64,000 bases of DNA. Source: Arenicellales bacterium (GTDB taxonomy: Bacteria; Pseudomonadota; Gammaproteobacteria; BMS3Bbin11). The notes under the pieces are model-generated. The model worked only from the letters and a program-made list of their open reading frames with translations, searched no databases and was not told where the DNA came from. The stretch lies in assembly GCA_048550195.1 (NCBI GenBank), contig JBLYYR010000111.1, positions 10,224-74,223 on the forward strand, written 5' to 3'. Position numbers and translations under genes: made by a program. Shown here one piece after another: positions 20,124 to 49,907 of the stretch. Position 1 is the first letter of the stretch, and each line of letters opens with the position of its first letter.

Positions 20124-20468
20124 CTACCCGGTTTTCATTACGGGCTGTGTTTCGTTGTTGAGGACAGCAGTTGAGACTTCACAGAGCTGATTCATCAGGC
20201 TTACTTTGCAAATGTCAGCATCATTTTGAATCAACAGGGTTGCCCGGGTAGCTTCGAGCATAGAAATGGTTATTTCAGGGTCTATGCATGCATCAAGGTG
20301 TCCGCAACTATTCTTTTTATAGAGATCTCGAACAAGTTTGGTAACGAATTTATGATGCACTGCATCCTCAGCAAGAAAAAAACGAATTTCATTCGCAGAA
20401 TAGACCACAGGGATCTGATGCATGCCAATTTGCTCTGCCAGTAGCTGAATATATTTCCTGAATGTCAT
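20124..20468 (-). CDS. Hypothetical protein of 114 aa
   Basis: The ORF is convergent with the previous gene, 5 bp apart. I recognised no motif. Confidence 0.35.
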   Translation of the reverse strand: MTFRKYIQLLAEQIGMHQIPVVYSANEIRFFLAEDAVHHKFVTKLVRDLYKKNSCGHLDACIDPEITISMLEATRATLLIQNDADICKVSLMNQLCEVSTAVLNNETQPVMKTG

Positions 20469-34598: not shown

Positions 34599-34794
34599 CC
34601 AGGCTAACACAACTCTGTGGCGAACAGGTTTTCGACTTTTTGTTTTTAAAAACGGTCATGTATTTTAAAAGCCGGATAGATGCAATAAATACCAAAGATC
34701 GGTAAAATAAGTTATTCACACAGCATGTGTATCTGTCCATTTCGTTTGTTGTCCGGATATACTTTTTCTCACTATGTAGCAATCGGGTTTTTAC

Positions 34795-35991
34795 ATGTCA
34801 GCCTATTCCATGCCGGATAATAATGGCCATTTTGGCCGCTTTGGGGGTATTTTTGTTGCCGAGACATTGATGCGTCCACTACAGGAATTAACACAGGCCT
34901 ATGAGAAATATATGCAGGACCCTGATTTCCTGCAGGAGTTTGATGACGATCTGAAATATTATGTTGGACGACCATCTCCTCTTTATTTTTCAGCAGGCCT
35001 GAGCCGGGAATACGGAACACAGATCTATTTAAAGAGAGAAGATCTGAACCATACCGGTGCGCATAAAATAAACAATACCGTTGGCCAGGCTTTGTTGGCG
35101 AAAAGGCTGGGTAAGACCCGTATTATTGCAGAAACAGGTGCTGGTCAGCACGGGGTAGCTACGGCTACAGTGGCTGCACGGCTGGGACTTGAGTGCGTGG
35201 TATACATGGGGGCTGATGATATCGAGCGCCAGGCTCCCAATGTCTACCGGATGAAATTACTCGGCGCTTCCGTCATCTCGGTGGAATCAGGTTCTCGTAC
35301 ATTGAAAGATGCACTCAACGAAGCGATGCGCGACTGGGTGACAAATGTCGAAGATACTTTCTATATCATCGGGACCGTCGCAGGCCCGCATCCTTATCCG
35401 ACCATGGTGCGAGACTTTCAGTCCATCATTGGCAGGGAAGCGCGACAGCAGATACTTGAACAGGCCGGTCGTTTACCGCATGCACTGGTTGCCTGTGTTG
35501 GCGGCGGATCCAATGCGATAGGACTTTTCTATCCCTTTATCGATGATGAAGCTGTGTCTATGTATGGTGTCGAAGCAGCAGGCGATGGTTTAGATACAGA
35601 TCACCATGCGGCGCCTTTATGCAAAGGCAGAGTGGGGGTGCTGCATGGCAATAGAACTTATTTGATGGAAGATACAAACGGGCAGATTATTGAGACCCAT
35701 TCTATCAGTGCCGGCCTTGATTATCCGGGTGTCGGTCCCGAACACGCCTGGTTGAAAGACATCGGACGGGCTAACTACGTCGCCATATCCGATGACGAGG
35801 CGATGGCCGGGTTTCATGACATCACACGTCTGGAAGGTATCATCCCGGCACTGGAGTCCAGTCATGCTATTGCTTATGCACGAAAGCTGGCGCCGGAACT
35901 GGGAAAAGACGGGATTATGATCGTTAATTTATCCGGACGCGGTGACAAGGATATCCAGACCATAGCAAATATTGACGGGGTGGAAATCTGA
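34795..35991 (+). CDS. trpB: Tryptophan synthase beta subunit
   Basis: The motifs [16 protein letters not shown] and [11 protein letters not shown] (PLP lysine) match trpB. Confidence 0.9.
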
Positions 35992-36797
35992 TGTCGCGGA
36001 TTGAAAGGTGTTTTGAAGCGCTTAGAGAAAACGGTAGAACAGGCCTGATTCCCTTTGTTACAGCTGGTGACCCGGTTTTAGACATTACTGTTCCGTTAAT
36101 GCATGCAATGGTAGATGCTGGTGCTGATCTTATAGAGCTGGGCATTCCATTTTCAGACCCGATGGCAGATGGCCCGGTTATTCAGAAGGCTAATCAACGC
36201 GCACTGGCACATGATACGAGTTTGTCTGATATGCTGGCTATGATGAAACAGTTTCGTCAGACAGATAAAACGACACCTGTCTTATTTATGGGATACCTGA
36301 ATCCTGTAGAAGCTATGGGTTATGAGGAACTTGCAGATGCGGCAAAGCTTTCTGGTGTTGACGGTCTATTGCTTGTTGATCTCCCCCCCGAGGAAGCAAG
36401 CGAATTCAATGAATTGCTTTATCAGAGTGACATAGACCCGGTTTATTTACTGGCACCCACATCAACGCCCCAGCGTATGGAAATCGTCTCTCTGGAGGCG
36501 CGTGGCTTCGTCTACTACGTGTCGACACGAGGTGTCACCGGCTCGGCGGCACTGGACTATAGTGAGATTAAAGCAAGTGTCGGTGAAATTCGCCAGCATA
36601 CAGACTTGCCAGTTGGTGTAGGATTTGGCATAAATAGCCCTGAACACGCCGTCAAAATTGGTGAATTTGCAGATGCTGTAGTAATAGGCAGTGCTATTGT
36701 TAAGATGATGGAAGATTTTGATGGAGATAAGCAGTCCGTCATCAAGGCAGTCAGTGATTTTCTGCGTGGTATTCGTAAAGCGCTGGATGCCGACTAA
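35991..36797 (+). CDS. trpA: Tryptophan synthase alpha subunit
   Basis: The motifs LIPFVTAGDP...LIELGIPFSDPMADGPVIQ match trpA. Confidence 0.9.
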   Translation: MSRIERCFEALRENGRTGLIPFVTAGDPVLDITVPLMHAMVDAGADLIELGIPFSDPMADGPVIQKANQRALAHDTSLSDMLAMMKQFRQTDKTTPVLFMGYLNPVEAMGYEELADAAKLSGVDGLLLVDLPPEEASEFNELLYQSDIDPVYLLAPTSTPQRMEIVSLEARGFVYYVSTRGVTGSAALDYSEIKASVGEIRQHTDLPVGVGFGINSPEHAVKIGEFADAVVIGSAIVKMMEDFDGDKQSVIKAVSDFLRGIRKALDAD

Positions 36798-36842
36798 ACA
36801 AATTTCGGATTTGTAATTAGCATGACTATCAGGAAAAGATAA

Positions 36843-37712
36843 ATGAGCTGGTTTGAAATGCTGCTGCCGCCAAAGATTAAAACTAGCGGCAGCTTTGGCA
36901 AAAAAGATATTCCTGAAGGACTGTGGAAAAAATGCCCGGCCTGCAGTGCTGTTCTTTATCGGGCTGAACTGGAGCGAAATCTTGATGTCTGCCCAAAATG
37001 CAGTCACCATTTACGCATCGGCGCCAGACGCCGCCTGGACATCCTTCTTGATGAATCCCCGCGGGAGGAAATAGGCAACACACTCAAGGCCACTGATCCG
37101 CTCAAGTTCAAGGATTTGAAAAAATACAGAGACCGCCTCACAGAAGCTCAGAAAAAAACCGATGAATCCGATGCACTGGTTGTTATAAAGGGTGAGCTTA
37201 AAGGTGATCCTGTTGTTGCTGCAGCCTTTGAATTCGGCTTTATGGGGGGGTCTATGGGGACTGTGGTCGGTGAAAAGTTTCTCCGTGCCGCTGATCTTTG
37301 TATGGAACAGAATATTCCATTAGTCTGCATTTCTGCCAGTGGCGGTGCACGTATGCAGGAAGCCCTGTTTTCGTTGATGCAGATGGCCAAGACCAGCGCA
37401 GTGTTACGAAGAATGTCTCATCAGGGTGTACCTTTTATTTCGGTACTCACCGATCCCACAATGGGAGGGGTTTCTGCCAGTCTGGCTATGCTCGGCGATG
37501 TGATTGTTGCTGAGCCCAAAGCTCTGATTGGATTTGCTGGTCCTCGTGTCATTGAACAGACCGTCCGTGAAACCTTGCCGGAAGGGTTTCAACGTTCTGA
37601 ATTTCTCGTTGAAACAGGCGCAATAGACCTGATTGCAGATCGTCGGGATTTGCGCGATGTAATAACCTCGATCCTGGGCATGCTGAGCGGGAAAAAAACC
37701 GTTGCTTCATAG
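36843..37712 (+). CDS. accD: Acetyl-CoA carboxylase carboxyltransferase beta subunit
   Basis: The zinc ribbon CPACSAVLY...CPKCSHH and a carboxyltransferase domain are present. Confidence 0.9.
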
Positions 37713-37730
37713 TGTGGTGTAACGAATAAG

Positions 37731-39008
37731 GTGTCACAGACTCCCGGGGACCTTGCCGGCTGGCTTGATTTTATCTCCGTTCAGCACAGTAGCGAGATTG
37801 AGCTGGGGCTAGACAGACTGAGACGGGTTGCAAATCAACTTGCTATCAGGTCGTTTAACTGTCCGCTGATAACTGTTGCGGGGACCAATGGTAAAGGCTC
37901 CAGCACTACTGCGCTGGAAAGTTTCTACACCAGTGCCGGTTACCGGACAGGCTGTTATACATCACCACACCTTAGCGTTTTCAATGAAAGGGTTCGCATA
38001 GACGGCATCTTTGCTGCCGATGATAAACTGTGTGCAGCTTTCGCAGAAATTAATTCTGCACGCGGTACGATCCCCCTGACATATTTTGAATTTTCCACCC
38101 TGGCAGCATTTGTGATTTTTCAACAGCATGAACTGGACATTATACTGCTTGAGGTTGGTCTTGGTGGGCGTCTTGATGCAACAAACCTGTTTCCTGCGGA
38201 TGTAGCATTGATAACCAGTATAAGTATTGATCATACAGACTGGCTGGGGAAAGACCGCGAAACCATCGGGGCAGAAAAAGCAGGTATTATTCACCCGGGC
38301 AATATCGCTGTGATTTCTGACCCTGCACCGCCACAGAATGTGGTGTCTATTGCCCGCGGTAGAGCCGAACGGGTATATTTACTTAATCAGGATTTCTCTT
38401 ATAGCATCAAGCGTAAGGACTGGTGCTGGCAGTCGAATCGAAGATCACTTGTCGGGCTGCCATTTTCACGGTTGCAGGGACTCCCGCAATTTAATAATCT
38501 TGCCGGAGTGCTGATGTGTCTAGAGGTGCTTCATGATTCATTGCCAGTAACTGTTGAGAGAATACGCTATGTTCTACCATCGATAAAACTGCCAGGAAGG
38601 TTCCAAATTATAGCGGGTGCTCCGCAGATAATACTGGATGTCTCGCATAATCCCGATTCAGTTGCATTGCTGGCAGACAATCTAAATAAGCTGCCGATAT
38701 CTGGCAGGACCCATGCGGTGGTTGCGATGCTGAAAGATAAGGACATCAGAGAATCTTTGTCCAGAATTAATTCAAGTATTGATTGCTGGTATGTTGGGGG
38801 ATTATCAGTTCCCAGGGCTGAAGGCGTTGATGGGTTAAAAGCAGTACTGAATGAGCTGGAACCGGCCGGGTGTGTCAAATCCAGCAATACAGTAGCAGAG
38901 GCATGGGAAGAGGCTTACAGTGAGGCCCGGGCTGACGACCGGATTGTAGTTTTTGGTTCTTTTCACACGGTAGGTGTTATAATCGATATCTTGTCATTGA
39001 GTAAGTGA
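37731..39008 (+). CDS. folC: Bifunctional folylpolyglutamate synthase / dihydrofolate synthase
   Basis: The Mur-ligase P-loop VAGTNGKGS is present. The accD-folC synteny supports the call. Confidence 0.85.
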   Translation: MSQTPGDLAGWLDFISVQHSSEIELGLDRLRRVANQLAIRSFNCPLITVAGTNGKGSSTTALESFYTSAGYRTGCYTSPHLSVFNERVRIDGIFAADDKLCAAFAEINSARGTIPLTYFEFSTLAAFVIFQQHELDIILLEVGLGGRLDATNLFPADVALITSISIDHTDWLGKDRETIGAEKAGIIHPGNIAVISDPAPPQNVVSIARGRAERVYLLNQDFSYSIKRKDWCWQSNRRSLVGLPFSRLQGLPQFNNLAGVLMCLEVLHDSLPVTVERIRYVLPSIKLPGRFQIIAGAPQIILDVSHNPDSVALLADNLNKLPISGRTHAVVAMLKDKDIRESLSRINSSIDCWYVGGLSVPRAEGVDGLKAVLNELEPAGCVKSSNTVAEAWEEAYSEARADDRIVVFGSFHTVGVIIDILSLSK

Positions 39009-39106
39009 AAACCCGGTTACTGACTTTGTTAATTACAACATTTATCAAATTTCAACATTTATTTACACCAGCCCATATTTGACAACGCCCTGAGAACTCT
39101 GACATT

Positions 39107-39820
39107 TTGTCTGCCACCTTGAAAAATAACTTCCATGAGTATGATCCTCGCCATCGACTGACGGGTGCGGTAGTGCTGATTTTACTCGCTATTATCCTGC
39201 TGCCGATGTTGCTAAGCAAGAAGCAGGAGATTGTAGAACCAGAAACTGATCCGGTAGTGATGGAGATTACAAAGGATGGTAAAAAGGTCTTTGTTTCACG
39301 CATCTCATCTGTTTCACCCGCTAGTTCAACAAGTAAATCAGATAAAGAATTACCCGCTGGTACAAAGCCGGCCACTGCAGTCCAGGGTAGTTCTGATTCC
39401 ACCCCATCCGCGCTATTCAGGCCTTTGCCTCCTACGGCAGAAAAGAGATCATCCTCAACTGAAAAGCCAGCGGCTGCTAAAAGTACAAAAACTTCTTCGG
39501 AAAAAAAGCCGGTAGCAAAAAAGACCACTTCAAAAAAAGCTGCTTCAGCAAAGACCACGGAAAAAAAATCAGTGCCTGTTACATCAGGCTGGATACTTCA
39601 GATAGGTGTGTTTTCACAATCTGAGAATGCAGCTAAAAAAGTAAGTGAGTTGAAAAAGAAGGGTTTTAATGCGACGTCGGGAAAAGTAAAAACCAGCAAA
39701 GGAACAGTGACTAAAGTCTGGATTGGGCCATTTAAGGACCGTAAGTCTGCCGAGAAAATGCAGGATAGACTCCAGCATAAAACACGGCAACGTGGAATTG
39801 TTGTTGAAAATAAATCCTGA
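39107..39820 (+). CDS. SPOR-domain cell-division protein (DedD-like)
   Basis: The protein has an N-terminal TM helix, a Ser/Thr/Lys/Pro-rich linker and a C-terminal SPOR fold (GWILQIGVFSQSENAAKKVSELKKKGF...VWIGPF). The start codon is TTG. Confidence 0.65.
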   Translation: MSATLKNNFHEYDPRHRLTGAVVLILLAIILLPMLLSKKQEIVEPETDPVVMEITKDGKKVFVSRISSVSPASSTSKSDKELPAGTKPATAVQGSSDSTPSALFRPLPPTAEKRSSSTEKPAAAKSTKTSSEKKPVAKKTTSKKAASAKTTEKKSVPVTSGWILQIGVFSQSENAAKKVSELKKKGFNATSGKVKTSKGTVTKVWIGPFKDRKSAEKMQDRLQHKTRQRGIVVENKS

Positions 39821-39832
39821 GACTGAAGCATT

Positions 39833-40333
39833 GTGTTAAACATTCTTGATATTATCATCATTGCTATAATCACTATTTCAGGTCTGGTTGGTGTCTTCCG
39901 TGGTCTGGTGCGAGAAATAATGTCACTGGTCGGCTGGATAGTGTCGGCATGGCTTGCATGGCGATTTGCCGGCGAATTCGCTCCTGTCTTTGAGTCGGTC
40001 ATTCAATCCGCTGATGTACGTAAAGCCGCTGCATTCATCTCAATATTCCTCCTGTCTCTGGTTTTGTTTGCCTTACTTTCATATTTTATTAGTAAAATTA
40101 TGAATAAATCCCCTTTGCAGGGCATGGACAGAACTCTGGGTATGCTCTTTGGTTTGTTACGCGGTGCTATCATTATTGCTATTCTGGTAGTGCTGATCCA
40201 GCAGTCTACACAGTTTGCTAAAGAGAGCTGGTGGCTTGGCTCTATGTTGAAAGAGTATTTTTTGGCACTTGCTGCCTATGGCATGTCTACAATGCCGGCA
40301 GAAGTTTCACGATTTTTCGGGCAGAAGGTGTGA
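39833..40333 (+). CDS. cvpA: Colicin V production membrane protein CvpA
   Basis: The start reads LDIIIIAIITISGLVGVFRG. The protein has 4 TM helices. It follows a SPOR protein and precedes purF. Confidence 0.8.
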   Translation: MLNILDIIIIAIITISGLVGVFRGLVREIMSLVGWIVSAWLAWRFAGEFAPVFESVIQSADVRKAAAFISIFLLSLVLFALLSYFISKIMNKSPLQGMDRTLGMLFGLLRGAIIIAILVVLIQQSTQFAKESWWLGSMLKEYFLALAAYGMSTMPAEVSRFFGQKV

Positions 40334-40397
40334 TATGCGCCCTGTTCAATTGGCTTGTTCTTCATTCATGTTCTAGCGTAGTCGAGGGTGATGTGAG

Positions 40398-41912
40398 ATG
40401 TGCGGGATAATCGGGATTTTTGCGCAGGGGAGTGTCAATCAATCCCTCTATGACGGGCTAACGGTATTGCAACACCGTGGCCAGGATGCAGCAGGTATTG
40501 TAACCAGTGATGGCGATCGCCTGTGTATGCGCAAGGATAATGGACTGGTGCGTGATGTCTTTCATACACGGCATATGCTCGGTCTGGAGGGGAACATGGG
40601 GATCGGGCATGTCAGATACCCAACCGCTGGATGTGATTCACGTTCTGAGGCACAACCCTTTTATGTCAATTCTCCATTCGGTGTGGCGCTAGGCCATAAC
40701 GGTAACCTGACCAATGCTATGGAGTTGCAGAAGGAACTGTTTCGGGATGATCTGCGCCACCTCAATACCAATTCTGATTCTGAAGTACTGCTGAATATTT
40801 TTGCGCATGAACTGTATCAATCCTCCAGCCTTCAACTGGGGCCGCAAGATGTCTTTAAGGCAGTTTCTGCTGTACATAAACGTGTCAGGGGTGCCTACTC
40901 TGTCGTGGCCCTGATTGTGGGGCAGGGGATACTTGCCTTTCGTGATCCATACGGAATCCGCCCGCTGATCTACGGTAGTCGTAACACGGCGAAAGGCCCG
41001 GAACACATCGTTGCGTCTGAAAGTGTAGCACTGGACGTACTCGGATACGATGTTGTACGTGATGTAGCACCGGGTGAAGCCATTTTTATTGATATGCAGG
41101 GGACTGTCCACACACGGCAGTGTGCTGAAAATAGCCAGGTATCCCCCTGTATTTTCGAATTTGTCTATATGTCGCGCCCTGATTCACTGATGGATGGGAT
41201 CTCAGTTCATAAAACCCGTTTGCGGACAGGTGTCTATCTGGGAAAGAAAATCAAACGTGAATGGCCGGATACAAAGATTGATGTGGTAATTCCTATTCCG
41301 GATACCAGCCGGACATCGGCCATCCAGTTAGCCAAACAATTAAAAGTAACTTACCGGGAAGGGTTTATCAAAAATCGTTACATAGGCAGGACATTTATCA
41401 TGCCCGGCCAGGAAGAGCGTATACGTTCTGTTAGAAGAAAGCTCAACCCGATAGATCTTGAATTCAGGGGTAAGAATGTCCTGCTGGTTGATGACTCAAT
41501 TGTGCGAGGTACTACTTCCAGCCAGATCATAAAAATGGCCAGGGATGCCGGGGCCAAACGTGTTTACTTTGCTTCCGCCGCACCGCCTGTCAGGTTCCCG
41601 AATGTTTACGGCATTGACATGCCATCCCCTTCAGAGCTGGTTGCACATAATCGTAACACCGAGGAAATCTGTAATGAGATTGGTGCAGACAAACTCATCT
41701 ATCTTGACCTGAAAGATCTGGTCAAGGCCGCGAAAAAAGGAAACAAAGAAATAACACAGTTCGATACCTCGTGTTTTAATGGTGAATATATTACCGGTGA
41801 TATCGACAAAAATTATCTTGAGATGATTAACCAGTTGCGTAATGATAATGCCCAGTCAAATGATAGTAATGCAAGTCAGACGGAGTTGAGTTTTACCGAC
41901 CAAGATGCCTGA
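40398..41912 (+). CDS. purF: Amidophosphoribosyltransferase
   Basis: The N-terminus is MCGIIGIF, which carries the Ntn cysteine. A PRTase domain with DDSIVRGTT follows. Confidence 0.9.
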
Positions 41913-43104
41913 AAATAATGGTGACAATTCTGATTATAAGATCGCGACCCGTGCGGTTCGCACAGGTCAGGTTCGTTCTCAGGAAGGCGAACATTCTGAT
42001 CCGATATTTCTGACCTCCAGCTATGTATTTAAGAATGCAGCCGATGCCGCGGCCAGGTTTTCTGGAGAAGTAGAAGGAAATATCTATTCACGCTTCACCA
42101 ATCCAACAGTACGTACCTTTGAACAAAGGCTTGCAGCTATGGAAGAAGGGGACTGCTGCGTGGCGACAGCTACAGGCATGAGCGCTATCGTTGCAACTTG
42201 CATGGGACTGCTGAATGCCGGTGACCATGTGGTAGCGGGGAGAGACCTGTTTGGGTCAACCATTATCCTGTTCAACAACATCCTGACGCGGTTTGGGCTC
42301 AGTTTTACTTATGTGGATTCGGCAGACCCGTCTCAATGGAAAGATGCGGTCCAGGCCAATACTAAAATGCTGTTTCTGGAAACTCCATCCAATCCACTTT
42401 GTAATGTATCTGATATTAATGCAGTAGCGAAGATAGCCCACGAGAATCAGGCCTTGCTGGTGGTAGATAATACATTCTGCACACCGGTGCTGCAGCAGCC
42501 ACTAAAGCTGGGTGCTGATGTGGTAGTCCATTCTTCTACAAAATATATCGATGGCCAGGGTAGAACCATGGGGGGTGCAGTAGTCGGTAGTAAACAGCTG
42601 GTAGGAGAAGGCGTATACAGTTTTCTTCGCAGTGCCGGCCCGTCACTTAGTCCATTCAATGCCTGGGTGCAATTGAAGGGCCTGGAAACACTGACGATTA
42701 GAATGCAGGCACATAGCCGGTATGCATTAGAGGTAGCAAGCTGGTTGGAGGCGCAGCCATCGGTTGAACGAGTCTTTTACCCGGACCTTCATTCACATCC
42801 GCAGCATGCTCTAGCTCAGCGTCAACAGGTTGCGGCGGCAGGTGTCCTTGCCTTTCAGGTTAATGGTGGGCGCGATGAAGCCTGGACAGTGATTGATAGT
42901 ACAAAACTGTTTTCAATCACCGCGAATCTGGGTGATGCGAAATCAACCATCACCCATCCTGCAACAACAACTCACGGGCGTCTGACTATCGAGCAACGGC
43001 AGCAGATGGGAGTGTTTGATAATCTGCTTAGGCTCTCTATTGGTCTGGAAGATGTAGATGATCTGAAAAGGGATCTTCAACGTGGGCTGGATCGACTCAA
43101 CTAG
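41905..43104 (+). CDS. metZ: O-succinylhomoserine sulfhydrylase (Cys/Met-metabolism PLP enzyme)
   Basis: The PLP-lysine motif reads [10 protein letters not shown]. The purF-metZ synteny is typical of Pseudomonas-like genomes. Confidence 0.8.
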
Positions 43105-43120
43105 TCTGGTTTAAGAGCCG

Positions 43121-44461
43121 ATGGACCTGGTAGAAAAAGCAAAGCAGTTCGCTACCTCCGCACACAAGCGCATAAATCACCTGCGCAAATATAATAATCA
43201 GCCCTATACTGTCCATCTTTCTACAGTGGCTAATATTGTTGCCTCAGTGACAGATGACAAGGAAATGATTGCTGCTGCCTGGCTGCATGACGTTGTAGAA
43301 GATACACCTGCCACGCTTTACGATGTGGAAAAGGAGTTTGGCAGTAATGTTGCTGAGTTGGTCGAAAACCTGACAGACATCAGTAAGCCGGGGGATGGTA
43401 ATCGACAGTTACGAAAAGCGATAGACAAACAGCATATCAGCAGGGCAAGTCAGCGTGCGAAAACGATCAAGCTGGCCGATTTAATCGATAATGCCAACGA
43501 CATATGCCAGCATGACGTTGAATTTGGCCAACTGTACTTACAGGAAATGAACGCATTACTGGAAGTGCTTGATGAAGGCGATACTGCACTCTATAAGCGG
43601 GCATGGAAAACGCACCACAAGTGCACGCAAAAACTGGAAAATACAGGAAAGGCTGAAACTCAACCAGATAAGAACAAAACACCCCTTCTCCCTGAACAGA
43701 ATGGTAATAAACATTTGTTCAGGCTGTTCTCAGAAGCCTTTACTGCACACCACCTTGCTGAATCCGTTCGATCATTTGATGCTTCTCGCCCCTGTAAAGA
43801 AGTGCAGGCTATGATGGAGCTTCACCATCTTGATATAGTTTGTTTAAGGGAGCAGGGAAAAATAGTGGGTTATGCACGCCATGATGATCTTATTGGCCGG
43901 ACATGTCGGGAAAACATGCGAAGCTTCAGAGATGGGCAGGTCGTTTCAGGAGACAGCCCTTTTTCGGATGTCATTCATGTACTCACCTTACAGGAATACG
44001 GATTTATCTCTATCCTGGGTGATATAGCAGGCGCCTTCAGTCGTGAGGACATCAATAAGCCGGTTGCCAGGATGTGGCTGTTTGGCATCATTACCTTTGT
44101 TGAAATGAATGTGAATAAAGTAATTTCTCTTCATTTCCCAGGAGACTGCTGGCAGTCAGCCCTTACAGAAGAAAGAATACAGCAGGCTAAGGGCCTGCAG
44201 GCAGAGCGTAATCGCCGAGGACAGCATTGTAGTTTGCTTGACTGTATCCAGCTGTCAGACAAAGGAAAGATTGTTATCAGTAAGGAAGAAACGCTGAAAA
44301 TGATGGGGCTGGAGTCAAGAAGGTCAGCAAAAAAAATCATACGTGAGATGGAGTCTCTGCGTAACAATCTGGCCCACGCGCAGGATATTGTGACCTATGA
44401 CTGGGGGCAGATAGTCAGGCTTACCAATCGTCTTGAAGAGACGTTGGGTAGCAGGGCTTAA
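43121..44461 (+). CDS. Multidomain protein joining an N-terminal Rel/SpoT-type (p)ppGpp-hydrolase HD domain, a central CBS-like pair and a C-terminal HEPN-like module
   Basis: Residues 1-190 read YTVHLSTVANIVAS...AAAWLHDVVEDT...EFGSNVAELVENLTDISK, the SpoT hydrolase signature. Residues about 210-320 show two CBS-like units (HHLDIVCLREQGKIVGYARHDDLIG and GFISILGDIAGAFSREDINKP). The C-terminus ends ...MESLRNNLAHAQDIV, which carries the Rx4H motif of HEPN domains. Confidence 0.6.
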   Translation: MDLVEKAKQFATSAHKRINHLRKYNNQPYTVHLSTVANIVASVTDDKEMIAAAWLHDVVEDTPATLYDVEKEFGSNVAELVENLTDISKPGDGNRQLRKAIDKQHISRASQRAKTIKLADLIDNANDICQHDVEFGQLYLQEMNALLEVLDEGDTALYKRAWKTHHKCTQKLENTGKAETQPDKNKTPLLPEQNGNKHLFRLFSEAFTAHHLAESVRSFDASRPCKEVQAMMELHHLDIVCLREQGKIVGYARHDDLIGRTCRENMRSFRDGQVVSGDSPFSDVIHVLTLQEYGFISILGDIAGAFSREDINKPVARMWLFGIITFVEMNVNKVISLHFPGDCWQSALTEERIQQAKGLQAERNRRGQHCSLLDCIQLSDKGKIVISKEETLKMMGLESRRSAKKIIREMESLRNNLAHAQDIVTYDWGQIVRLTNRLEETLGSRA

Positions 44462-44542
44462 ACAAGATAAGGGATAAAAGATAAAAGACAAAAGAGAAAT
44501 CTTTGCAATCTTTATCGTCCTAAGTGCTTGGCCCTGCCTTCG

Positions 44543-45931
44543 TTAGATAACCTTCGAAAAACGCTTTTCCTGATTGTCTTTCAGGTGTGCGTCAAAGGTC
44601 ATGCATATGTTTCGTATGAGTAATCTTCCAGCAGGCAGAACGGTGATGCTGCTGTCATTAATTTGCAGCAGTTCGTCATCCTGCATAACTTCGAGTCGAG
44701 ATAACTCATTGCTAAAATAGTCTGCAAAATTAATATTGTACTTTTTCCCGAACTTTTCCATCTCCAGTCTGAAGTTACAGATAAGCTGGCTTATCAGATC
44801 CCGGCGTAACAGGTCATCGTCTGTGAGGATGAGACCTCGCATGAGCGGTAATTTATTTTCATCAATCATCTGATAGTAGGATTCTTCATCACGCACATTC
44901 TGGCTGTAGATATTATTAACCTGTGAAATGGCCGTGACGCCCATTGCCACCATGTCGCAATCTGCATGTGTGGAGTAGCCCTGGAAGTTTCTGTATAAGC
45001 GCCCCTTGTCCTGGGCAATGACCAGTTCATCATCCGGTTTGGCAAAGTGGTCCATACCGACGTAGACATAGCCTTTTTCGGTCAGGTACTGGATGACTGA
45101 CTGCAGTATCTCCAGCTTTTCAGCAGCGGAGGGTAAGTCATCTTCATTAATGCGTCGCTGCGGCATAAACAGGGTAGGCAGGTGGGCATAATTGAACACG
45201 GACAGCCTGTCAGGATCAACCTGCATGATTTTATCCAGTGTGGCAAGAAAGCTTTCAACCGTTTGAAAGGGCAGACCATAAATCAAGTCTACACTGACAG
45301 ACTTAAATTTGGCTTCGCGGGCGGCATTAATTGCTGCAAAGGTAATTTCTTCACTTTGTATGCGATTGACGGCCTTCTGCACTTTGGCATCAAAATCCTG
45401 TACACCGAGACTGAGACGATTAAAGCCGATGTCGCGCAGGAAATGCACCCCGTCAGCAGTGATTTCTCTGGGATCTATTTCTATTGAGTACTCACCTTTA
45501 TCATCAGCCATCAGAGAGAAATGCTGACCCGTTTTTTCCATTAAGCGTCGCATCTGATCGTGACTTAGAAAGGTAGGTGTGCCACCACCCCAGTGTAATT
45601 GATCGACAGGACGGGATCTGTCGTACAGCGCCCCCTGCATTTCTATTTCGCGGTAAAGATGATCCAGATAGGGTGTGGCCCGGTCACGTCGTTTGGTCAC
45701 AATCTTGTTGCAGGCACAGTAAAAGCAGACGGTGTCACAAAAGGGGATGTGGAAATAAAGGGAAAGTGGCTTTGGCTTTGCCTCTTTGTTGCTTCGGTCA
45801 GCTGCAGCCCGGTAATCATCGGCTGAGAAACTGTCATTAAAAAGGTTGGCCGTGGGGTAGGAGGTATAACGAGGCCCTGCCTTATCGTAGCGCTTGATTA
45901 AGTCTGGTTTGAATTCGATCTTCTGTTCCAT
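44543..45931 (-). CDS. hemN: Oxygen-independent coproporphyrinogen III oxidase (radical SAM)
   Basis: The radical-SAM CxxxCxxC motif is HIPFCDTVCFYCAC. The HemN C-terminal domain is present. Confidence 0.85.
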   Translation of the reverse strand: MEQKIEFKPDLIKRYDKAGPRYTSYPTANLFNDSFSADDYRAAADRSNKEAKPKPLSLYFHIPFCDTVCFYCACNKIVTKRRDRATPYLDHLYREIEMQGALYDRSRPVDQLHWGGGTPTFLSHDQMRRLMEKTGQHFSLMADDKGEYSIEIDPREITADGVHFLRDIGFNRLSLGVQDFDAKVQKAVNRIQSEEITFAAINAAREAKFKSVSVDLIYGLPFQTVESFLATLDKIMQVDPDRLSVFNYAHLPTLFMPQRRINEDDLPSAAEKLEILQSVIQYLTEKGYVYVGMDHFAKPDDELVIAQDKGRLYRNFQGYSTHADCDMVAMGVTAISQVNNIYSQNVRDEESYYQMIDENKLPLMRGLILTDDDLLRRDLISQLICNFRLEMEKFGKKYNINFADYFSNELSRLEVMQDDELLQINDSSITVLPAGRLLIRNICMTFDAHLKDNQEKRFSKVI

Positions 45932-45942
45932 TATTACTACCC

Positions 45943-46192
45943 CGAATGTAATCTAGCCGACATTCAGCTAGTCTGTGCTTGTTCATGGCGAGGAGCCTAA
46001 CGCCGCTGTAGCTATTCTACAGCAAGTTTCGACAACGATGTTCATGTGCAAGCACAGACTAGCCCGGAGGGCGCCCCAATAATGTTCAGTTTTTTGTTGC
46101 GACTCTTGCTAAGGACTCGGTCATTCGTGGCGGGCCGCGCCTCAATCTGAATCATTATTGGGGCCCTGAATGTAGGCTAGATTACATTCAGG
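45943..46192. repeat. 250-bp block of nested inverted repeats (a MITE-like or structured-RNA element) in the divergent hemN promoter region
   Basis: The outer inverted repeat pairs 45943-45967 (cgaatgtaatctagccgacattcag) with 46165-46192. One inner inverted repeat pairs ctagtctgtgcttg (45968-45981) with caagcacagactag (46049-46062). A second inner one pairs gccccaataatg (46073-46084) with cattattggggc (46153-46164). An extra hairpin, gctgtag-ctatt-ctacagc, lies at 46005-46023. Confidence 0.55.
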
Positions 46193-46333
46193 GTAGTTAC
46201 TCCCTGTCAGGGTTTTGTCCCAGAATGTCATTTTCTGGTTGATGATCAGGCTAATAAGAAGGATTATATCACTCAGATATATTTAGCAATAACAGATAAA
46301 CTCGCCACTTCGGCAACTTTTGAGGAAAGCAAT

Positions 46334-47050
46334 ATGTTGTTCATGTTTGTAAGGGTAATTATATTTACTGTTTTAGCCATGTCGTTGACCAGGGCCCTTG
46401 CTTTTGAGACTGAAGTGACTGTCCTGATGTTCAATGAGCAGGACTCACAAAATGAGCCGGGCTATATCTCACGGATATTACTTAGCAAGGACTTCTTACG
46501 TCTGGATGATGGGGAAAACCATGGGGATTTCGCATTATTTGACAGAAAAACCGGGACTATATACAGCGTTAGTCATGAGGATCAGCGTACCCTGGTTATT
46601 CCTCTGCAGCCTGTATTAGCGATTCCGCCAAGACCCTTAAGGCATGATATTGAAGAGCTTGATGCGGGTGGCGTCCCTGACGTGGATGGTAAGAAGGTGT
46701 CGAGGTACTATATGTTTACAAACGGTACCCGCTGTATGGAGGTTTATGCAGTACCCGGTTTTCATGATGATATAACCGATACACTTGCAGCTTTTGCAAT
46801 AACACTGGCGGGTCAGCATGCAAAATCGGTCGATGTCATACCGGACCAGGCTGGCGCTGATTGTGATCTGGCTAATAATATTTTCGAACCAGACCGCTAT
46901 TTGAGCAAAGGATTCCCCGTCAGGCAGAAGGATTTTACGGGACGAACCCGTTCTCTGGTCAATATTAAAGAAAAGGTCATCATTGATTCAACTGTGTTTG
47001 AGCTGCCGGAAGGCTACGAAAGGTTTATGCCTGGCGTTTTTTCAAAGTAG
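46334..47050 (+). CDS. Hypothetical secreted protein or lipoprotein
   Basis: The protein has a signal peptide (MLFMFVRVIIFTVLAMSLTRALA). I recognised no catalytic motif. Its 3' end overlaps the convergent lpxH by 26 bp. Confidence 0.45.
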   Translation: MLFMFVRVIIFTVLAMSLTRALAFETEVTVLMFNEQDSQNEPGYISRILLSKDFLRLDDGENHGDFALFDRKTGTIYSVSHEDQRTLVIPLQPVLAIPPRPLRHDIEELDAGGVPDVDGKKVSRYYMFTNGTRCMEVYAVPGFHDDITDTLAAFAITLAGQHAKSVDVIPDQAGADCDLANNIFEPDRYLSKGFPVRQKDFTGRTRSLVNIKEKVIIDSTVFELPEGYERFMPGVFSK

Positions 47051-47822
47051 CCTGGCTGCGTTCCTCCGTGATATCGATGGTAGCAATCATTGTGTTATCA
47101 GGATAACTGAACAGACTGTATTTAGTTTGATCATGTACAAGGTAATTGCCTTTTTGATACCAGTCACCGAGAACAATTCGGTGTGCTGTTTTACCGCCAA
47201 GCTGGAATTTATGTATCGCTGTTCGATGGGTATGCCCATGGATCAGTAGCCTGACATTATGCTCCTGCATTGCTGCCTCTACCGCAGCCTGGTTAACATC
47301 CATTATCGACTCGAGCTTTTCTTCATTGCCTTTTTGGCTATTCATGCGAAGTTGGCGGGCAAATTCCTCTCGTTCATCAATGGTTTTGGACAGTATGTTG
47401 TTTTTCCATTCATTGCTGCGGCTCATTGCACGGAACTGTTGGTGTGCCACATCATCTGTACACAGGCTGTCACCATGCATTAAAAGGACATCCAGGCCAT
47501 TCAGCCTGAAAACCGTTGGGTCCGGTAGCAGCCAGCTGCTAGCAGACGAGGCGAAGCCAGTGCCAACCAGGAAATCACGGTTGCCGTGCATGAAATAAAG
47601 CTTTGTATTGTGGCCGGCGAGAACAGCCAGACTTTCCGAAATAGCCTGATATCCAGAGTGTTCACAGGCGTCATCTCCCAGCCAGTACTCAAACAGGTCG
47701 CCGAGAATAAAAAGCTGGTCCGCAGCAACCGCTTTGCTGCGGATAAAATCATCAAATAGCTGAATACCCTCGGGGCGACCCGGGTCAAGATGAAGGTCTG
47801 ATATAAATAGACTGGTAGTCAT
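47025..47822 (-). CDS. lpxH: UDP-2,3-diacylglucosamine diphosphatase
   Basis: The sequence LFISDLHLD...ILGDLFEYWLGDD...MHGNRD shows the calcineurin-like metallophosphoesterase motifs of LpxH. Confidence 0.85.
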   Translation of the reverse strand: MTTSLFISDLHLDPGRPEGIQLFDDFIRSKAVAADQLFILGDLFEYWLGDDACEHSGYQAISESLAVLAGHNTKLYFMHGNRDFLVGTGFASSASSWLLPDPTVFRLNGLDVLLMHGDSLCTDDVAHQQFRAMSRSNEWKNNILSKTIDEREEFARQLRMNSQKGNEEKLESIMDVNQAAVEAAMQEHNVRLLIHGHTHRTAIHKFQLGGKTAHRIVLGDWYQKGNYLVHDQTKYSLFSYPDNTMIATIDITEERSQATLKKRQA

Positions 47823-47841
47823 AAATTAATCAAATCTTCCC

Positions 47842-48339
47842 TTAGTCATCGATTTCTTCGACTTTGAGGATGACTACATCCTCTACAGGCACATCTCCAT
47901 GGCCCCCGGAATTGCTGGTAGCGACAGCTGCAATCTTATCGACCACATCCATGCCATCCGTGACCTTGCCAAAGACACAATAGCCCCAGCCCTGCGCGTT
48001 CTTACCGCTGTGGTTAAGAAAGGCATTGTCTTTCAGGTTGATGAAAAACTGGGCTGTCGCAGAATGTGGGTCGTTAGTACGGGCCATGGCGAGTGTGCCA
48101 CGGTCGTTTCCCAGACCATTATCAGCCTCATTTTCAATCGTATCGAGGGTCTGTTTCTGTATCATGCCGGGGTTAAAGCCGCCGCCCTGAATCATGAAGT
48201 TCGGGATAACACGATGAAAAATCGTATTATCAAAAAATTCATCCGCTATGTACTTTTTGAAGTTCTCTACTGTTAGCGGGGCTTTATCGGCATCCAGCTC
48301 AATGGTGATTGTGCCGTAATTCGTTTCCATTTTGATCAT
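47842..48339 (-). CDS. ppiB: Peptidyl-prolyl cis-trans isomerase B (cyclophilin type)
   Basis: The cyclophilin fold is shown by [14 protein letters not shown]...GTLAMAR. The lpxH-ppiB-cysS neighbourhood is conserved. Confidence 0.85.
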
Positions 48340-48509
48340 TTGATCTTCATCCTGTAAAAAAACGAAAAATTATAGCATGGGTATGGTTTCTATTAAGTGG
48401 TGATTTTATTTGCCACAGAGGGTTTTCATGACTATTGTGTCTATGGCCTTTCTTTTCCGGTAAAATCTCTGTTTTTTATCGACTTAATTAGAGTTCTGAA
48501 ATCTCCAGC

Positions 48510-49907
48510 ATGCTCAAAATTTATAATAGTCTTACCCGCAAAAAAGAAGTATTCAAACCAATAGTCCCCGGCAAGGTGGGTATCTATGTCTGTGGCATGA
48601 CGGTTTATGATCTGTGCCACATTGGTCATGCCAGAGTCATGGTTGTGTTTGATCTGGTAACCCGCTATTTGCGTGACCGGGGTTTTGAAGTTAACTACGT
48701 ACGAAATATCACTGACATAGATGACAAGATAATCGCCAGAGCAATAGAAAATGGCGAGAGTATTAAAAAACTGACCGGGCGTTTTATTGATGCCATGCAT
48801 GAAGATACAGACCGACTGGGTGTTTTGCGTCCTGATCATGAGCCCCGTGCCACGCGACACATGGATGGCATCATCTCTCTGATTGGCAAGCTGATAGAAA
48901 ACGGCTATGCGTATCAGACGAAATCAGGTGATATCTGCTTTCGTGTGCGGAAGTTTGAGCAATATGGACAATTATCCGGTGAATCGCTGGATGATTTACA
49001 GGCAGGTGCGCGTGTAGACGTCGAAACAGGCAAGGATGATCCACTGGATTTTGTCCTGTGGAAACAGGCCAAGCCCGATGAACCGAGCTGGCAATCGGAG
49101 TGGGGCGATGGTCGTCCCGGCTGGCATATAGAGTGTTCGGCTATGTCGATGGAGGAGCTGGGTGAACATTTCGATATCCACGGAGGCGGTCAGGATCTCC
49201 GCTTCCCGCATCATGAAAATGAGATTGCCCAGTCAGAGTGCGCCACGGGTCATCACTTTGTAAATACCTGGATGCATAATGGTTTTGTCCGTATAGACGA
49301 TGAAAAAATGTCAAAGTCTCTGGATAACTTTTTTACTATCCGTGATGTGCTGGATACTTATCACCCGGAAATCCTGCGCTACTTCATCATTAACAGTCAT
49401 TATCGCAGCCCACTGAACTATAGCGACGAGACACTGGATCAGGCAAAAGCGGCCCTTGAAGGCTACTATCTGGCACTGGATGGACTGGATATTATTAACG
49501 ATGTTGAACTGGATAACGAAATATCAGCACCTTTTCTTTCTGCCATGGATGATGACTTTAATACCCCGGAGGCATTATCTGTGCTGTCCGCACTGCGTCG
49601 TGACATCAATACTGCCCGGCAATCAGGTAATCAGGAGCATGCTACTTTTCTCGCCGGGCAACTCAGGGCACTGGGGGCAATCCTTGGACTATTTCAGCTC
49701 CACCCTATCGCGTTCTTGCGTGGTATTTCAGGAGACAGCCAGTCAGGGGGGCTTTCTAATACGGAGGTCGATGCACTGGTAGACGAGAGAACTCTGGCTC
49801 GCGCCGAGAAAAACTGGGCGCGGGGGGATGAGATCAGGGATATTCTTAATGAGGAAGGCATTGTCCTGGATGACAGCGCGCGTGGCACAAGGTGGCGCAG
49901 GGAGTAG
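48510..49907 (+). CDS. cysS: Cysteine--tRNA ligase
   Basis: The HIGH motif (CHIGHAR), the KMSKS motif and zinc-binding cysteines are present. Confidence 0.9.
   Translation: MLKIYNSLTRKKEVFKPIVPGKVGIYVCGMTVYDLCHIGHARVMVVFDLVTRYLRDRGFEVNYVRNITDIDDKIIARAIENGESIKKLTGRFIDAMHEDTDRLGVLRPDHEPRATRHMDGIISLIGKLIENGYAYQTKSGDICFRVRKFEQYGQLSGESLDDLQAGARVDVETGKDDPLDFVLWKQAKPDEPSWQSEWGDGRPGWHIECSAMSMEELGEHFDIHGGGQDLRFPHHENEIAQSECATGHHFVNTWMHNGFVRIDDEKMSKSLDNFFTIRDVLDTYHPEILRYFIINSHYRSPLNYSDETLDQAKAALEGYYLALDGLDIINDVELDNEISAPFLSAMDDDFNTPEALSVLSALRRDINTARQSGNQEHATFLAGQLRALGAILGLFQLHPIAFLRGISGDSQSGGLSNTEVDALVDERTLARAEKNWARGDEIRDILNEEGIVLDDSARGTRWRRE

What the first reader, a model, noticed from the sequence alone, without database searches (positions are those of the whole stretch)
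45943..46192. 250-bp block of nested inverted repeats between hemN and a divergent secreted-protein gene
An outer 25-bp inverted repeat (45943-45967 against 46165-46192, 2 mismatches) brackets at least three internal hairpins. They are ctagtctgtgcttg with caagcacagactag, gccccaataatg with cattattggggc, and gctgtag-ctatt-ctacagc. Density and nesting of this kind do not arise by chance. The block looks like a MITE or REP-type mobile element, or like a long structured RNA (an sRNA or a 5' UTR sensor), in the promoter region of the oxygen-regulated hemN. Only a weak FNR half-site (TTGAT, about 46238) is visible. The usual anaerobic control may therefore be replaced or supplemented by this element.
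Basis: seen in the sequence. Interest (0 to 1): 0.55.

Follow-up and report, generated by a model that had tools for sequence, protein, structure and literature searches.

The report
Strain-variable nested palindrome in hemN leader
The 262-bp block of nested inverted repeats is real, but it is a recent DNA insertion that some close relatives lack, resembling a small mobile palindromic element rather than a conserved regulatory RNA; its likely side effect is to bury the hemN ribosome-binding region in a very stable hairpin.

Summary
Window 45936-46197 is a 262-bp three-way nested palindrome: a 32-bp outer stem and two inner hairpins of about 96 nt. The fold z-score is about -10.8 on both strands.

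It ends 4 nt upstream of the hemN ATG, downstream of a conserved extended -10 box, so it probably lies in the hemN 5' UTR.

Orthologous loci from Arenicellales metagenomes show three alleles at exactly this site:
- empty (HemN 93%, 89% and 76% identical);
- a 38-nt hairpin (98-96%);
- the full 262-bp form (the window and one other strain).

The 38-nt form equals the large form with its centre deleted between short direct repeats. REPIN excision is reported to leave the same product.

The two large copies differ at about the local synonymous rate, equally in stems and loops. No Watson-Crick pair is kept by a change on both sides. Their ancestor was a near-perfect palindrome.

There is no Rfam hit and no tRNA. 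No second copy turned up in any sequence I could search.

Best reading: an orphan REPIN/MITE-like palindromic insertion that occludes the hemN ribosome-binding region. It is not a sensor RNA and does not replace FNR control. Interest is modest.

The parts
45936..46197 (.). Whole nested palindromic insertion (262 bp). Under the TAA-duplication model the element proper is 45937-46196, flanked by TTA at 45934-45936 and 46197-46199 (TAA in hemN sense).
   Evidence: It is absent or reduced to 38 nt in orthologous loci.
46166..46197 (.). Outer arm distal to hemN (the 5' arm in hemN sense). It is itself an imperfect palindrome, CCCTGAATGTA / TACATTCAGGG.
   Evidence: I1, I4.
45936..45967 (.). Outer arm next to hemN (the 3' arm in hemN sense). 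It contains the SD-like GGGG (CCCC on the plus strand, 45940-45943) and ends 4 nt from the ATG at 45931. This arm plus ACTACC corresponds to the 38-nt hairpin of the sister strains (35 of 38 positions).
45967..46063 (.). Inner hairpin C (97 nt). The 21-nt arms are 45967-45987 / 46043-46063, with the innermost 7-bp hairpin at 46007-46025.
   Evidence: I2; DNA fold -27 kcal/mol, z = -7.1.
46073..46164 (.). Inner hairpin B (92 nt). The arms are 46073-46089 / 46147-46164, with a 1-nt bulge in the window and a perfect 20 bp in the sister strain.
   Evidence: I3.
46064..46072 (.). 9-nt linker between hairpins C and B at the three-way junction.
44543..45931 (-). hemN (oxygen-independent coproporphyrinogen III oxidase), the gene whose leader carries the insertion.
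46263..46271 (-). Predicted extended -10 box TGATATAAT of hemN. The TATAAT hexamer is conserved in all relatives with or without the element; the TG extension is absent in L082/L083 (TGGTATAAT) and L086 (TGCTATAAT). It places the element inside a 5' UTR of about 325 nt. This is inferred, not mapped.
46220..46238 (-). Native conserved leader hairpin CCAGAA-N7-TTCTGG, present in all relatives. Its 3' half, GACATTCTGGG, weakly resembles the repeat unit of the element.
   Evidence: D2, I5.

Best explanation
The block is a lineage-specific, non-coding palindromic DNA insertion of the REPIN/MITE kind.

Architecture. Two inverted copies of a 32-nt unit, each an imperfect palindrome, enclose a 198-bp spacer made of two further hairpins.

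Origin. The block entered the hemN leader between the native promoter and the start codon after the lineage split from relatives with about 93% identical HemN. When it arose it was an almost perfect palindrome at the DNA level, and it has since decayed at the neutral rate.

The 38-nt hairpin in sister strains has the form flank, palindrome, complementary flank. It is most simply the remnant left when the centre of the large form was lost between the short direct repeats CTGAATGT. REPIN excision is reported to leave the same product.

Consequence. This part is inferred. In hemN mRNA the 3' arm pairs with the 5' arm, so the SD-like GGGGUAG at positions -12 to -6 is locked in a stem ending 4 nt before the AUG. 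The stem is 32 bp in the large allele and 12 bp in the small one. This should lower hemN translation or make it depend on cleavage of the long duplex by RNase III.

Shown: the anatomy, the three alleles, the neutral decay, the lack of Rfam homology and the predicted occlusion.

Inferred: transposase-mediated mobility, the direction large to small, the transcription start and any effect on expression.
For: 1. Insertion polymorphism at one exact site. The empty allele reads ...CCTGACAGGTAGTAATAATG in L084, L085 and L086, and the more distant L001 (unalignable leader) has no inverted repeat upstream of hemN. A 38-nt hairpin is present in L082, L083, L087 and L088. The 262-bp form is in the window and in L081/L137/L138.

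2. No constraint on structure. The window and L081 differ at 15 positions in the element, about 5.5-6%. Local third-codon divergence is 4.8-6.7%. Counted on the three long stems, as in the full report, changes fall about equally in stems and loops. None converts one Watson-Crick pair into another. Each lineage carries its own pair-breaking changes, so the common ancestor had perfect 32-bp and 19-20-bp stems.

3. Both strands fold equally well, as expected for DNA-level symmetry.

4. The small allele matches ACTACC plus the 3' arm at 35 of 38 positions. This is the flank, palindrome, complementary-flank product that Bertels and Rainey describe for REPIN excision (PMC3337134, section 7).

5. Composition. 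CTAG occurs 4 times in 262 bp against 0.61 per kb in the window, and the inner 198 bp matches nothing in the window. Both suggest imported DNA.

6. A second strain-variable palindrome, this one with canonical GTAG...CTAC REP-doublet ends, lies just downstream of hemN in L137 and L084 but not in the window. Palindromic insertions therefore come and go in this population.

7. The -15..-7 region has P(unpaired) 0.61 in the empty allele and 0.00 in both filled alleles.

8. There is no Rfam family, no tRNA or tmRNA and no ORF of 50 aa or more in the block.
Against: - No second copy of the unit or of the inner hairpins was found: not in the 64-kb window, 1.1 Mb of fetched loci, GTDB representatives or JGI metagenomes (only the orthologous locus), IMG/VR, plasmids or phages. 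A protein search with the spurious ORFs of the element also found nothing.
- None of the 27 of 55 window ORFs that I scanned is a transposase.
- The termini read CTAC...GTAG, the reverse of canonical REP/REPIN ends.
- The 3-bp TAA duplication is only one of several readings of the junction. An 8-bp GG(T/G)AGTAA repeat fits equally well.
- The locus is a recombination mosaic, so phylogeny cannot decide whether the large or the small form came first.
- The transcription start and the effect on translation are predictions only.
Confidence: 0.55

Rival explanations
1. The palindrome grew in situ. A local leader hairpin was enlarged stepwise by replication template-switching or fold-back synthesis and by local duplication. 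No transposase was involved and no other copies exist.
For: - The element appears to be single-copy everywhere I could search.
- The inferred ancestral stems were perfect, as template switching would produce.
- The 5' part ACTACC is the reverse complement of GGTAGT, which already exists at the empty site.
- The sequence following the 5' unit (AGGGCCCCAATAATGATTCAGA) matches the sequence following the 3' unit, which includes the hemN start (GGGGTAGTAATAATGGAACAGA), at 14 of the first 22 positions, including AATAATG in register (repeat D1).
- The unit weakly resembles the native conserved hairpin half GACATTCTGGG (repeat D2).
Against: - The inner 198 bp has no detectable source in the 64-kb window or in the orthologous loci.
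- CTAG enrichment and higher G+C (50% against 47%) suggest foreign DNA.
- The local similarities are only marginally significant by my own rough estimates, about p = 0.01-0.1 after allowing for multiple comparisons.
- A canonical REP doublet that varies between strains lies next door, so mobile palindromes do exist in this population.
Confidence: 0.2
2. The structure is a selected cis-regulatory RNA in the hemN 5' UTR. It would be an SD-occluding hairpin acting as a translational brake, an RNA thermometer or an RNase III switch, possibly recruited from an inserted palindrome.
For: - The stem sequesters the -15..-7 region completely in both filled alleles.
- Insertion alleles occur in six distinct strains (two large, four small) with hemN intact and under purifying selection. 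Window against L081 shows 1, 0 and 8 changes at codon positions 1, 2 and 3.
- The leader carrying the 38-nt hairpin differs at only 0-2 of 113 nt between small-allele strains whose hemN third positions differ by 9-19%.
Against: - The large form evolves at the neutral rate with no pair-preserving double substitutions.
- It is absent from the nearest outgroups and has no Rfam match.
- Both strands fold equally well.
- Low divergence of the small-allele leader can be explained by recent recombination (L082 = L083 over that stretch) and by general conservation of the leader, which holds in empty alleles too.
- A 32-bp near-perfect duplex is too stable to act as a reversible switch.
Confidence: 0.15
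3. The block is an independent small-RNA gene, or some other trans-acting structured RNA, encoded between the divergent genes.
For: The block is very stable and about 260 nt long, and it lies in an intergenic region.
Against: - No promoter-like or terminator-like site lies inside or borders the block.
- There is no Rfam hit.
- It is absent from close relatives.
- There is no strand asymmetry and no covariation.
Confidence: 0.03

Closest known systems
REPINs (REP doublets forming hairpins) and their long palindromic singlet remnants, mobilised by RAYT transposases (Bertels and Rainey 2011; PMC3116915, PMC3337134)
   Same: - Two copies of a short imperfect palindrome lie in inverted orientation around a spacer that itself forms hairpins, and the whole folds into a long hairpin.
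- A sister allele has the form flank, palindrome, complementary flank, as expected from loss of the centre (compared).
- The block is extragenic.
- Its presence varies between strains.
   Different: - The spacer is 198 bp and holds two large hairpins of its own, whereas the Pseudomonas examples have spacers of roughly 34-110 bp.
- The termini read CTAC...GTAG rather than GTAG...CTAC.
- No further copies and no RAYT gene were found.
- REPINs normally occur tens to hundreds of times per genome.
Correia repeat-enclosed elements (CREE) of Neisseria (PMC2649163)
   Same: - A miniature element bounded by inverted repeats is inserted between a native promoter and a gene, so it becomes part of the mRNA.
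- There the inverted repeats form a hairpin that RNase III binds or cleaves, changing expression.
- CREE can abut the start codon.
- Presence differs between strains.
   Different: - I see no sequence relationship, though this is from recollection of the CREE consensus and was not aligned here.
- CREE are 70-157 bp, use a TA target and occur about 100-250 times per genome.
- CREE can create sigma-70 promoters; none is predicted in this block.
Bacterial MITEs in general (reviews PMC2229807, PMC10969869)
   Same: The block has terminal inverted repeats, no coding capacity, a size of a few hundred bp or less, a possible short target duplication (TAA) and insertion polymorphism.
   Different: No parent IS with matching ends is known and no multicopy family is demonstrated. 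The nested three-way palindrome is not the usual single-hairpin layout.
SD-sequestering leader hairpins (RNA thermometers, expression platforms of riboswitches)
   Same: A stem pairs with the ribosome-binding region immediately upstream of the AUG.
   Different: The stems here are 12-32 bp of near-perfect duplex, there is no conserved sensor domain, and there is no covariation or conservation outside a few strains.

Membership tests
REPIN / REP (RAYT-mobilised) | Two short imperfect palindromes in inverted orientation around a spacer, together forming a long hairpin | tested here: met
   The arms 45936-45967 and 46166-46197 are each internally palindromic, and they pair over 32 nt.
REPIN / REP (RAYT-mobilised) | Many copies of the REP unit dispersed in the same genome | tested here: not met
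   There is no other copy in the 64-kb window, allowing up to 3 mismatches, nor in 15 kb of the sister strain. The exact 22-mer search of GTDB genomes found nothing. In JGI metagenomes it found only the orthologous locus. Limit of the test: the complete source genome could not be searched, and the scans required exact matches.
REPIN / REP (RAYT-mobilised) | Conserved GTAG at the 5' end of each REP, so that the doublet reads GTAG...CTAC | tested here: not met
   The ends read CTAC...GTAG on both strands. The neighbouring element in L137 does read GTAG...CTAC.
REPIN / REP (RAYT-mobilised) | A cognate RAYT (Y1 transposase) gene in the genome, flanked by the same REPs | not testable with these tools
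   None of the 27 of 55 window ORFs scanned is a transposase.
REPIN / REP (RAYT-mobilised) | Excision leaves a long palindromic singlet (flank, palindrome, complementary flank) | tested here: met
   The 38-nt allele ACTACCCTGAATATCGGCTAGACAACATTCGGGGTAGT in L082, L083, L087 and L088 matches ACTACC plus the 3' unit at 35 of 38 positions. The direction of change is inferred.
MITE (DDE-transposon derived) | Terminal inverted repeats and no coding capacity | tested here: met
   The inverted repeat is 32 nt at 94% complementarity, and only ORFs of 37 aa or fewer lie in the block.
MITE (DDE-transposon derived) | Target-site duplication of fixed length | tested here: inconclusive
   Compared with the empty site, the junction fits TAA|CTACCC...GGGTAG|TAA. 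It fits an 8-bp GG(G/T)AGTAA repeat equally well.
MITE (DDE-transposon derived) | Presence/absence polymorphism with an intact empty site | tested here: met
   L084, L085 and L086 carry the empty site.
MITE (DDE-transposon derived) | A multicopy family and/or a parent IS with the same ends | tested here: not met
   The searches are the same as for the REPIN copy-number test. In addition there were no matches in plasmids or phages, and IMG/VR gave either no match or single-arm chance matches.
Curated structured RNA (Rfam family, riboswitch or leader) | Match to a covariance model | tested here: not met
   cmscan at E up to 10 over 45000-47200 gave only two chance snoRNA hits, both outside the block.
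Curated structured RNA (Rfam family, riboswitch or leader) | Conservation in orthologous leaders with compensatory base changes | tested here: not met
   The block is absent from relatives at or below 93% HemN identity. Among the 15 differences between the two large copies, none preserves a Watson-Crick pair by a change on both sides.

The most novel reading that the evidence does not exclude
A mobile or self-generated palindrome has been recruited as a strain-specific translational brake on hemN. The natural allelic series would then set three different levels of oxygen-independent haem synthesis in co-occurring sediment Arenicellales: no hairpin, a 12-bp hairpin, and a 32-bp RNase III-type duplex, all ending 4 nt before the AUG. 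The unusual CTAC...GTAG doublet with a two-hairpin spacer would also represent an undescribed type of REPIN-like element, or the birth of one from a local leader hairpin.
Probability: 0.12. Interest if true: 0.55.

Novelty: new member of a known kind. Interest (0 to 1): 0.3.

Why it matters
If the reading is right, this is a clean natural example of how small palindromic insertions reshape a gene's leader. Three alleles (empty, 38 nt, 262 nt) sit at one nucleotide position in closely related, recombining strains. Each is predicted to expose or bury the hemN ribosome-binding region to a different degree.

The case also serves as a caution for genome scans. A very strong fold z-score (-10.8) can come from DNA-level symmetry rather than from a functional RNA.

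It does not open a new class of mechanism. The orphan, single-copy status and the reversed CTAC...GTAG ends are the only unusual aspects.

Tried and rejected
- Known RNA family: cmscan at E up to 10 gave nothing in the block, and ARAGORN found no tRNA or tmRNA.
- Promoters or terminators inside the block: the consensus scan found none.
- Other copies in the window: a pattern search allowing 3 mismatches, blastn with word size 7 and a whole-window inverted-repeat scan found only the block itself.
- Other copies in public data:
  - The exact 22-mer of the unit had 0 hits in GTDB genomes.
  - JGI metagenomes gave only the orthologous locus.
  - A degenerate hairpin pattern had 0 hits in IMG/VR.
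  - The arms of hairpins B and C gave only single-arm 15-22-nt chance hits in IMG/VR.
  - blastn against plasmids and phages gave no match.
  - blastn against all 136 fetched loci (1.1 Mb) gave only the orthologous sites.
- Copies detected through spurious ORFs: a protein search with concatenated translations of the element gave no hit at E up to 1.
- Transposase in the neighbourhood: the 27 of 55 window ORFs that I scanned are all housekeeping or unknown, and none is a transposase.
- Polarity from phylogeny (large to small, or small to large): abandoned, because the locus is a recombination mosaic.
- Tn3-type ends (GGGG...): rejected, because the orientation is CCCC...GGGG.
- IS630-type TA duplication in a CTAG target: rejected, because the empty site has no CTAG.
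- Exact-sequence look-ups of the window's own HemN, of the 238-aa protein and of P0001 found no record.

Full report
**1. The observation**

The sequence at 45936-46197 is a 262-bp block of nested inverted repeats.
- The outer pair is longer than reported: 32 nt, 45936-45967 against 46166-46197, 30 of 32 complementary.
- Inside it lie two hairpins of about 96 nt each.
  - Hairpin C has 21-nt arms at 45967-45987 / 46043-46063 and contains the small gctgtag-ctatt-ctacagc hairpin at 46007-46025.
  - Hairpin B has arms at 46073-46089 / 46147-46164 with a 1-nt bulge.
- A 9-nt linker joins hairpins B and C.

As RNA either strand folds to -133.7 kcal/mol, against about -79 and -77 for dinucleotide shuffles (z = -10.8 and -10.9). 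The two spaced inverted repeats among the five of at least 18 nt found in the whole 64-kb window are both in this block.

**2. Context**

- hemN (Radical_SAM plus HemN_C) runs 44543-45931 on the minus strand.
- The divergent ORF 46334-47050 encodes a 238-aa protein with a hydrophobic N-terminus and no Pfam hit.
- The block ends 4 nt upstream of the hemN ATG.
- In hemN sense the last bases read ...ACATTCGGGGTAGTAATAATG. The only SD-like motif (GGGG, positions -12 to -9) therefore lies inside the outer stem.
- An extended -10 box, TGATATAAT (46271-46263, minus strand), lies upstream of the block. Its TATAAT hexamer is conserved in all relatives examined, with or without the block. The TG extension is present in the window, L137, L084 and L085. 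It is absent in L082/L083 (TGGTATAAT) and L086 (TGCTATAAT).
- I infer that hemN mRNA starts near 46256 and carries the whole block in a 5' UTR of about 325 nt. This is a prediction.
- The consensus scan found no promoter-like or terminator-like site inside the block.

**3. Not a known RNA**

- An Rfam scan at E up to 10 gave only two chance snoRNA hits outside the block.
- ARAGORN found nothing.
- No ORF longer than 37 aa lies in the block.

**4. Relatives and the three alleles**

The nearest HemN in GTDB genomes is from an Arenicellales MAG (L001, 76% identical). It is syntenic, has a 206-bp intergenic region and has no inverted repeat there. The protein search gave a graded series of closer homologues. 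Their contigs all keep the gene order PPIase, metallophosphoesterase, 238-aa gene, then divergent hemN.

Aligning the leaders shows three states at exactly one position.

| Allele | Loci | HemN identity | Sequence at the site |
|---|---|---|---|
| Empty | L084, L085 | 93% | ...CCTGACAGGTAGTAATAATG |
| Empty | L086 | 89% | same site, diverged (...CCCTGATAAACAGTAAAAATG) |
| Empty | L001 | 76% | no inverted repeat; leader too diverged to align |
| 38-nt hairpin | L082 | 98% | ACTACCCTGAATATCGGCTAGACAACATTCGGGGTAGT |
| 38-nt hairpin | L083, L087, L088 | 96% | same hairpin (one loop change in L083 and L087) |
| 262-bp form | window | - | full block |
| 262-bp form | L081 = L138 (JGI), L137 (ENA) | 99% | full block, identical to each other |

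The block is therefore an insertion, not an ancestral feature of the hemN leader.

The junction can be read in two ways. One is a TAA duplication, TAA|CTACCC...GGGTAG|TAA. The other is an 8-bp repeat, GG(G/T)AGTAA. I cannot decide between them.

**5. Relation of the small and large forms**

Each outer arm is itself an imperfect palindrome, CCYGAATGT-N10-ACATTCRGGG (I4). The large form is therefore a doublet of one unit in inverted orientation around a 198-bp spacer.

The 38-nt allele matches ACTACC plus the 3' unit at 35 of 38 positions. That is what remains if the large form loses everything between the two direct copies of CTGAATGT. This flank, palindrome, complementary-flank product is what Bertels and Rainey describe as the remnant of REPIN excision (PMC3337134, section 7).

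The opposite direction, small to large, has no simple mechanism, but it cannot be excluded. The locus is a recombination mosaic. The window's non-element intergenic DNA is identical to the empty allele L084 over one stretch and only 79% identical to the small-allele strains there. Between the window and L137, third-codon divergence is 4.8-6.7% around hemN but 10-27% in flanking genes.

**6. Is the structure under selection?**

The two independent large copies differ at 14 substitutions and one 1-nt indel.
- This is about 5.5-6%, the same as local third-codon divergence (4.8-6.7%) and the neighbouring leader (3.5-5%).
- Nine changes fall in the three long stems and six in their loops, in proportion to the number of bases.
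- No change converts one Watson-Crick pair into another.
- One pair of changes turns a G.G mismatch in the window into A-T in L081. With 15 differences that is within chance expectation.
- Each lineage has its own pair-breaking changes. The window has C.U in stem A, and G.G and a bulge in stem B. L081 has C.A and C.U in stem A and two C.A in stem C.
- The common ancestor therefore had perfect stems A (32 bp) and B (19-20 bp).

Perfect symmetry at birth followed by neutral decay, with equal folding of both strands, points to a DNA-level origin and away from a selected RNA fold.

For the small allele the leader is very similar among strains: 0-2 differences in 113 nt, against 9-19% at hemN third positions. 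Recombination and the general conservation of this leader, which holds in empty alleles too, explain that as well as selection on the hairpin would. I rate this point inconclusive.

**7. Is it multicopy?**

I found no second copy.
- Window: a 19-nt arm pattern allowing up to 3 mismatches, and blastn with word size 7, found only the block.
- Fetched loci: all 136 loci, 1.1 Mb, gave only the orthologous sites.
- GTDB representative genomes: 0 exact matches to the 22-mer.
- JGI metagenomes: only the orthologous locus.
- IMG/VR: no match to the hairpin pattern and only chance single-arm matches to the B and C arms.
- Plasmids and phages: no match.
- A protein search with the spurious ORFs of the element found nothing.
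- None of the 27 of 55 window ORFs scanned is a transposase.

These tests are limited. The collection scans needed exact matches, and I could not search the complete source genome. Even so, a family as abundant and conserved as typical REPINs or Correia elements should have shown up.

Two points favour imported DNA:
- CTAG occurs four times in the block against 0.61 per kb in the window.
- The inner 198 bp has no source in the window.

Weak hints of local origin also exist (repeats D1 and D2).
- The bases after the 5' unit resemble those after the 3' unit, including AATAATG of the hemN start, in register.
- The unit resembles half of a conserved native leader hairpin.
- By my rough estimate both are only marginally significant.

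**8. Likely consequence**

I folded the predicted leaders with ViennaRNA.

| Allele | P(unpaired), positions -15 to -7 | Leader MFE (kcal/mol) |
|---|---|---|
| Empty (L084) | 0.61 | -12.5 |
| 38-nt (L082, L083, L088) | 0.00 | -28 to -32 |
| 262-bp (window) | 0.00 | -152 |

- The AUG itself stays partly open, but the stem ends 4 nt before it, inside the ribosome footprint.
- I therefore expect reduced hemN translation.
- For the large allele I expect processing of the 32-bp duplex by RNase III, as shown for Correia elements transcribed between promoter and gene in Neisseria (PMC2649163).
- hemN itself remains intact and under purifying selection: 1, 0 and 8 changes at codon positions 1, 2 and 3 between the window and L081.

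**9. FNR**

The lone half-site (TTGAT at 46239-46243; ATCAA in hemN sense) is identical in relatives with and without the element. The element has therefore neither displaced nor replaced an FNR box.

The more distant L001 does have TTGCCGTAAATCAA 22 nt upstream of a TACAAT hexamer, the spacing of a class II FNR promoter (reading by eye). The change of promoter type is older than the insertion.

**10. Comparison with known systems**

In architecture and in the nature of its remnant the block works like a REPIN. In its position and probable effect on mRNA it works like a Correia element or another MITE lying in a leader.

It fails the membership tests I could run for REPINs:
- no copy number;
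- termini reading CTAC...GTAG instead of GTAG...CTAC;
- no RAYT gene seen.

It cannot be tied to any IS family either. I therefore file it as an orphan member of the broad kind 'miniature palindromic insertion', not as a member of a named family.

A canonical REP doublet with GTAG...CTAC ends, also variable between strains, lies just downstream of hemN in L137 and L084 but not in the window. This shows that such elements are active in this population.

**11. Verdict**

The sensor-RNA and FNR-replacement ideas are not supported. Interest is modest at 0.3. The allelic series is a neat natural experiment, but the phenomenon is of a known kind.

Noticed in passing
L137:5151-5244 (= L138:1744-1837, = L084:3365-3458); the corresponding window site is 44462-44542: A second strain-variable palindrome lies between the convergent hemN and HD-domain genes: GTAGGAGCGCCGCCCTCGGCGCGATT-30 nt-AATCGCGCCGAGGGCGACGCTCCTAC. 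It is a canonical GTAG...CTAC REP doublet. It sits inside the loop of an outer terminator-like hairpin, AAGCCCAAAG...CTTTGGGCTTTT. It is 99% identical between L137 and L084, although their hemN genes differ by about 8% over the stretch compared. It is absent from the window, whose 81-bp spacer is unrelated. A similar GTAGGAGCG...CGCTCCTAC hairpin occurs in an unrelated GC-rich IMG/VR contig (L139:4960-5016).
   Followed up: partly
window 34625-49668 compared with L137:1-15124: The locus is a recombination mosaic. Third-codon divergence between the two strains carrying the large allele is 4.8-6.7% in the 238-aa gene and hemN, but 10-27% in the flanking genes (cysS, PPIase, purF, folC, accD, trpAB). 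The window's non-element intergenic DNA is 100% identical to the empty-allele strain L084 over a stretch of about 50 nt where it is only 79% identical to the small-allele strains.
   Followed up: partly
L001:3052-3093: The 76%-identical Arenicellales relative has TTGCCGTAAATCAA 22 nt upstream of TACAAT ahead of hemN, the layout of a class II FNR promoter. The window's clade has instead an extended -10 box, TGATATAAT, and only an ATCAA half-site downstream of it.
   Followed up: no
window 45953, 45968, 46059, 46177: CTAG is about six-fold under-represented in the window (39 sites in 64 kb). Yet it occurs four times in the 262-bp block, once in each outer arm and once in each arm of hairpin C.
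   Followed up: partly
window 46220-46238 (minus strand: CCAGAAAATGACATTCTGG): A 6-bp-stem hairpin or palindrome in the native hemN leader is conserved in all relatives down to 89% HemN identity. It may be a protein-binding site or a leader structure. Its 3' half resembles the repeat unit of the insertion.
   Followed up: no
window 45922-45967 against 46146-46191: A direct repeat of 46 nt at 72% identity: the hemN start region plus the adjacent arm resembles the arm of hairpin B plus the other outer arm, including CATTATT in register. This may be a trace of local duplication during formation of the element, or it may be chance.
   Followed up: partly
window 9743-10090 (+), 19522-20118 (+), 20124-20468 (-): Three ORFs of 114-198 aa have no Pfam match, in a window that is otherwise made up of housekeeping genes.
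   Followed up: no
L138 (JGI24024J18818_10000021), position 1: The 38.6-kb JGI contig ends about 60 nt upstream of the large element, inside the hemN leader. The ENA assembly of an identical sequence reads through. This may be an assembly break caused by strain heterogeneity at this polymorphic site.
   Followed up: no
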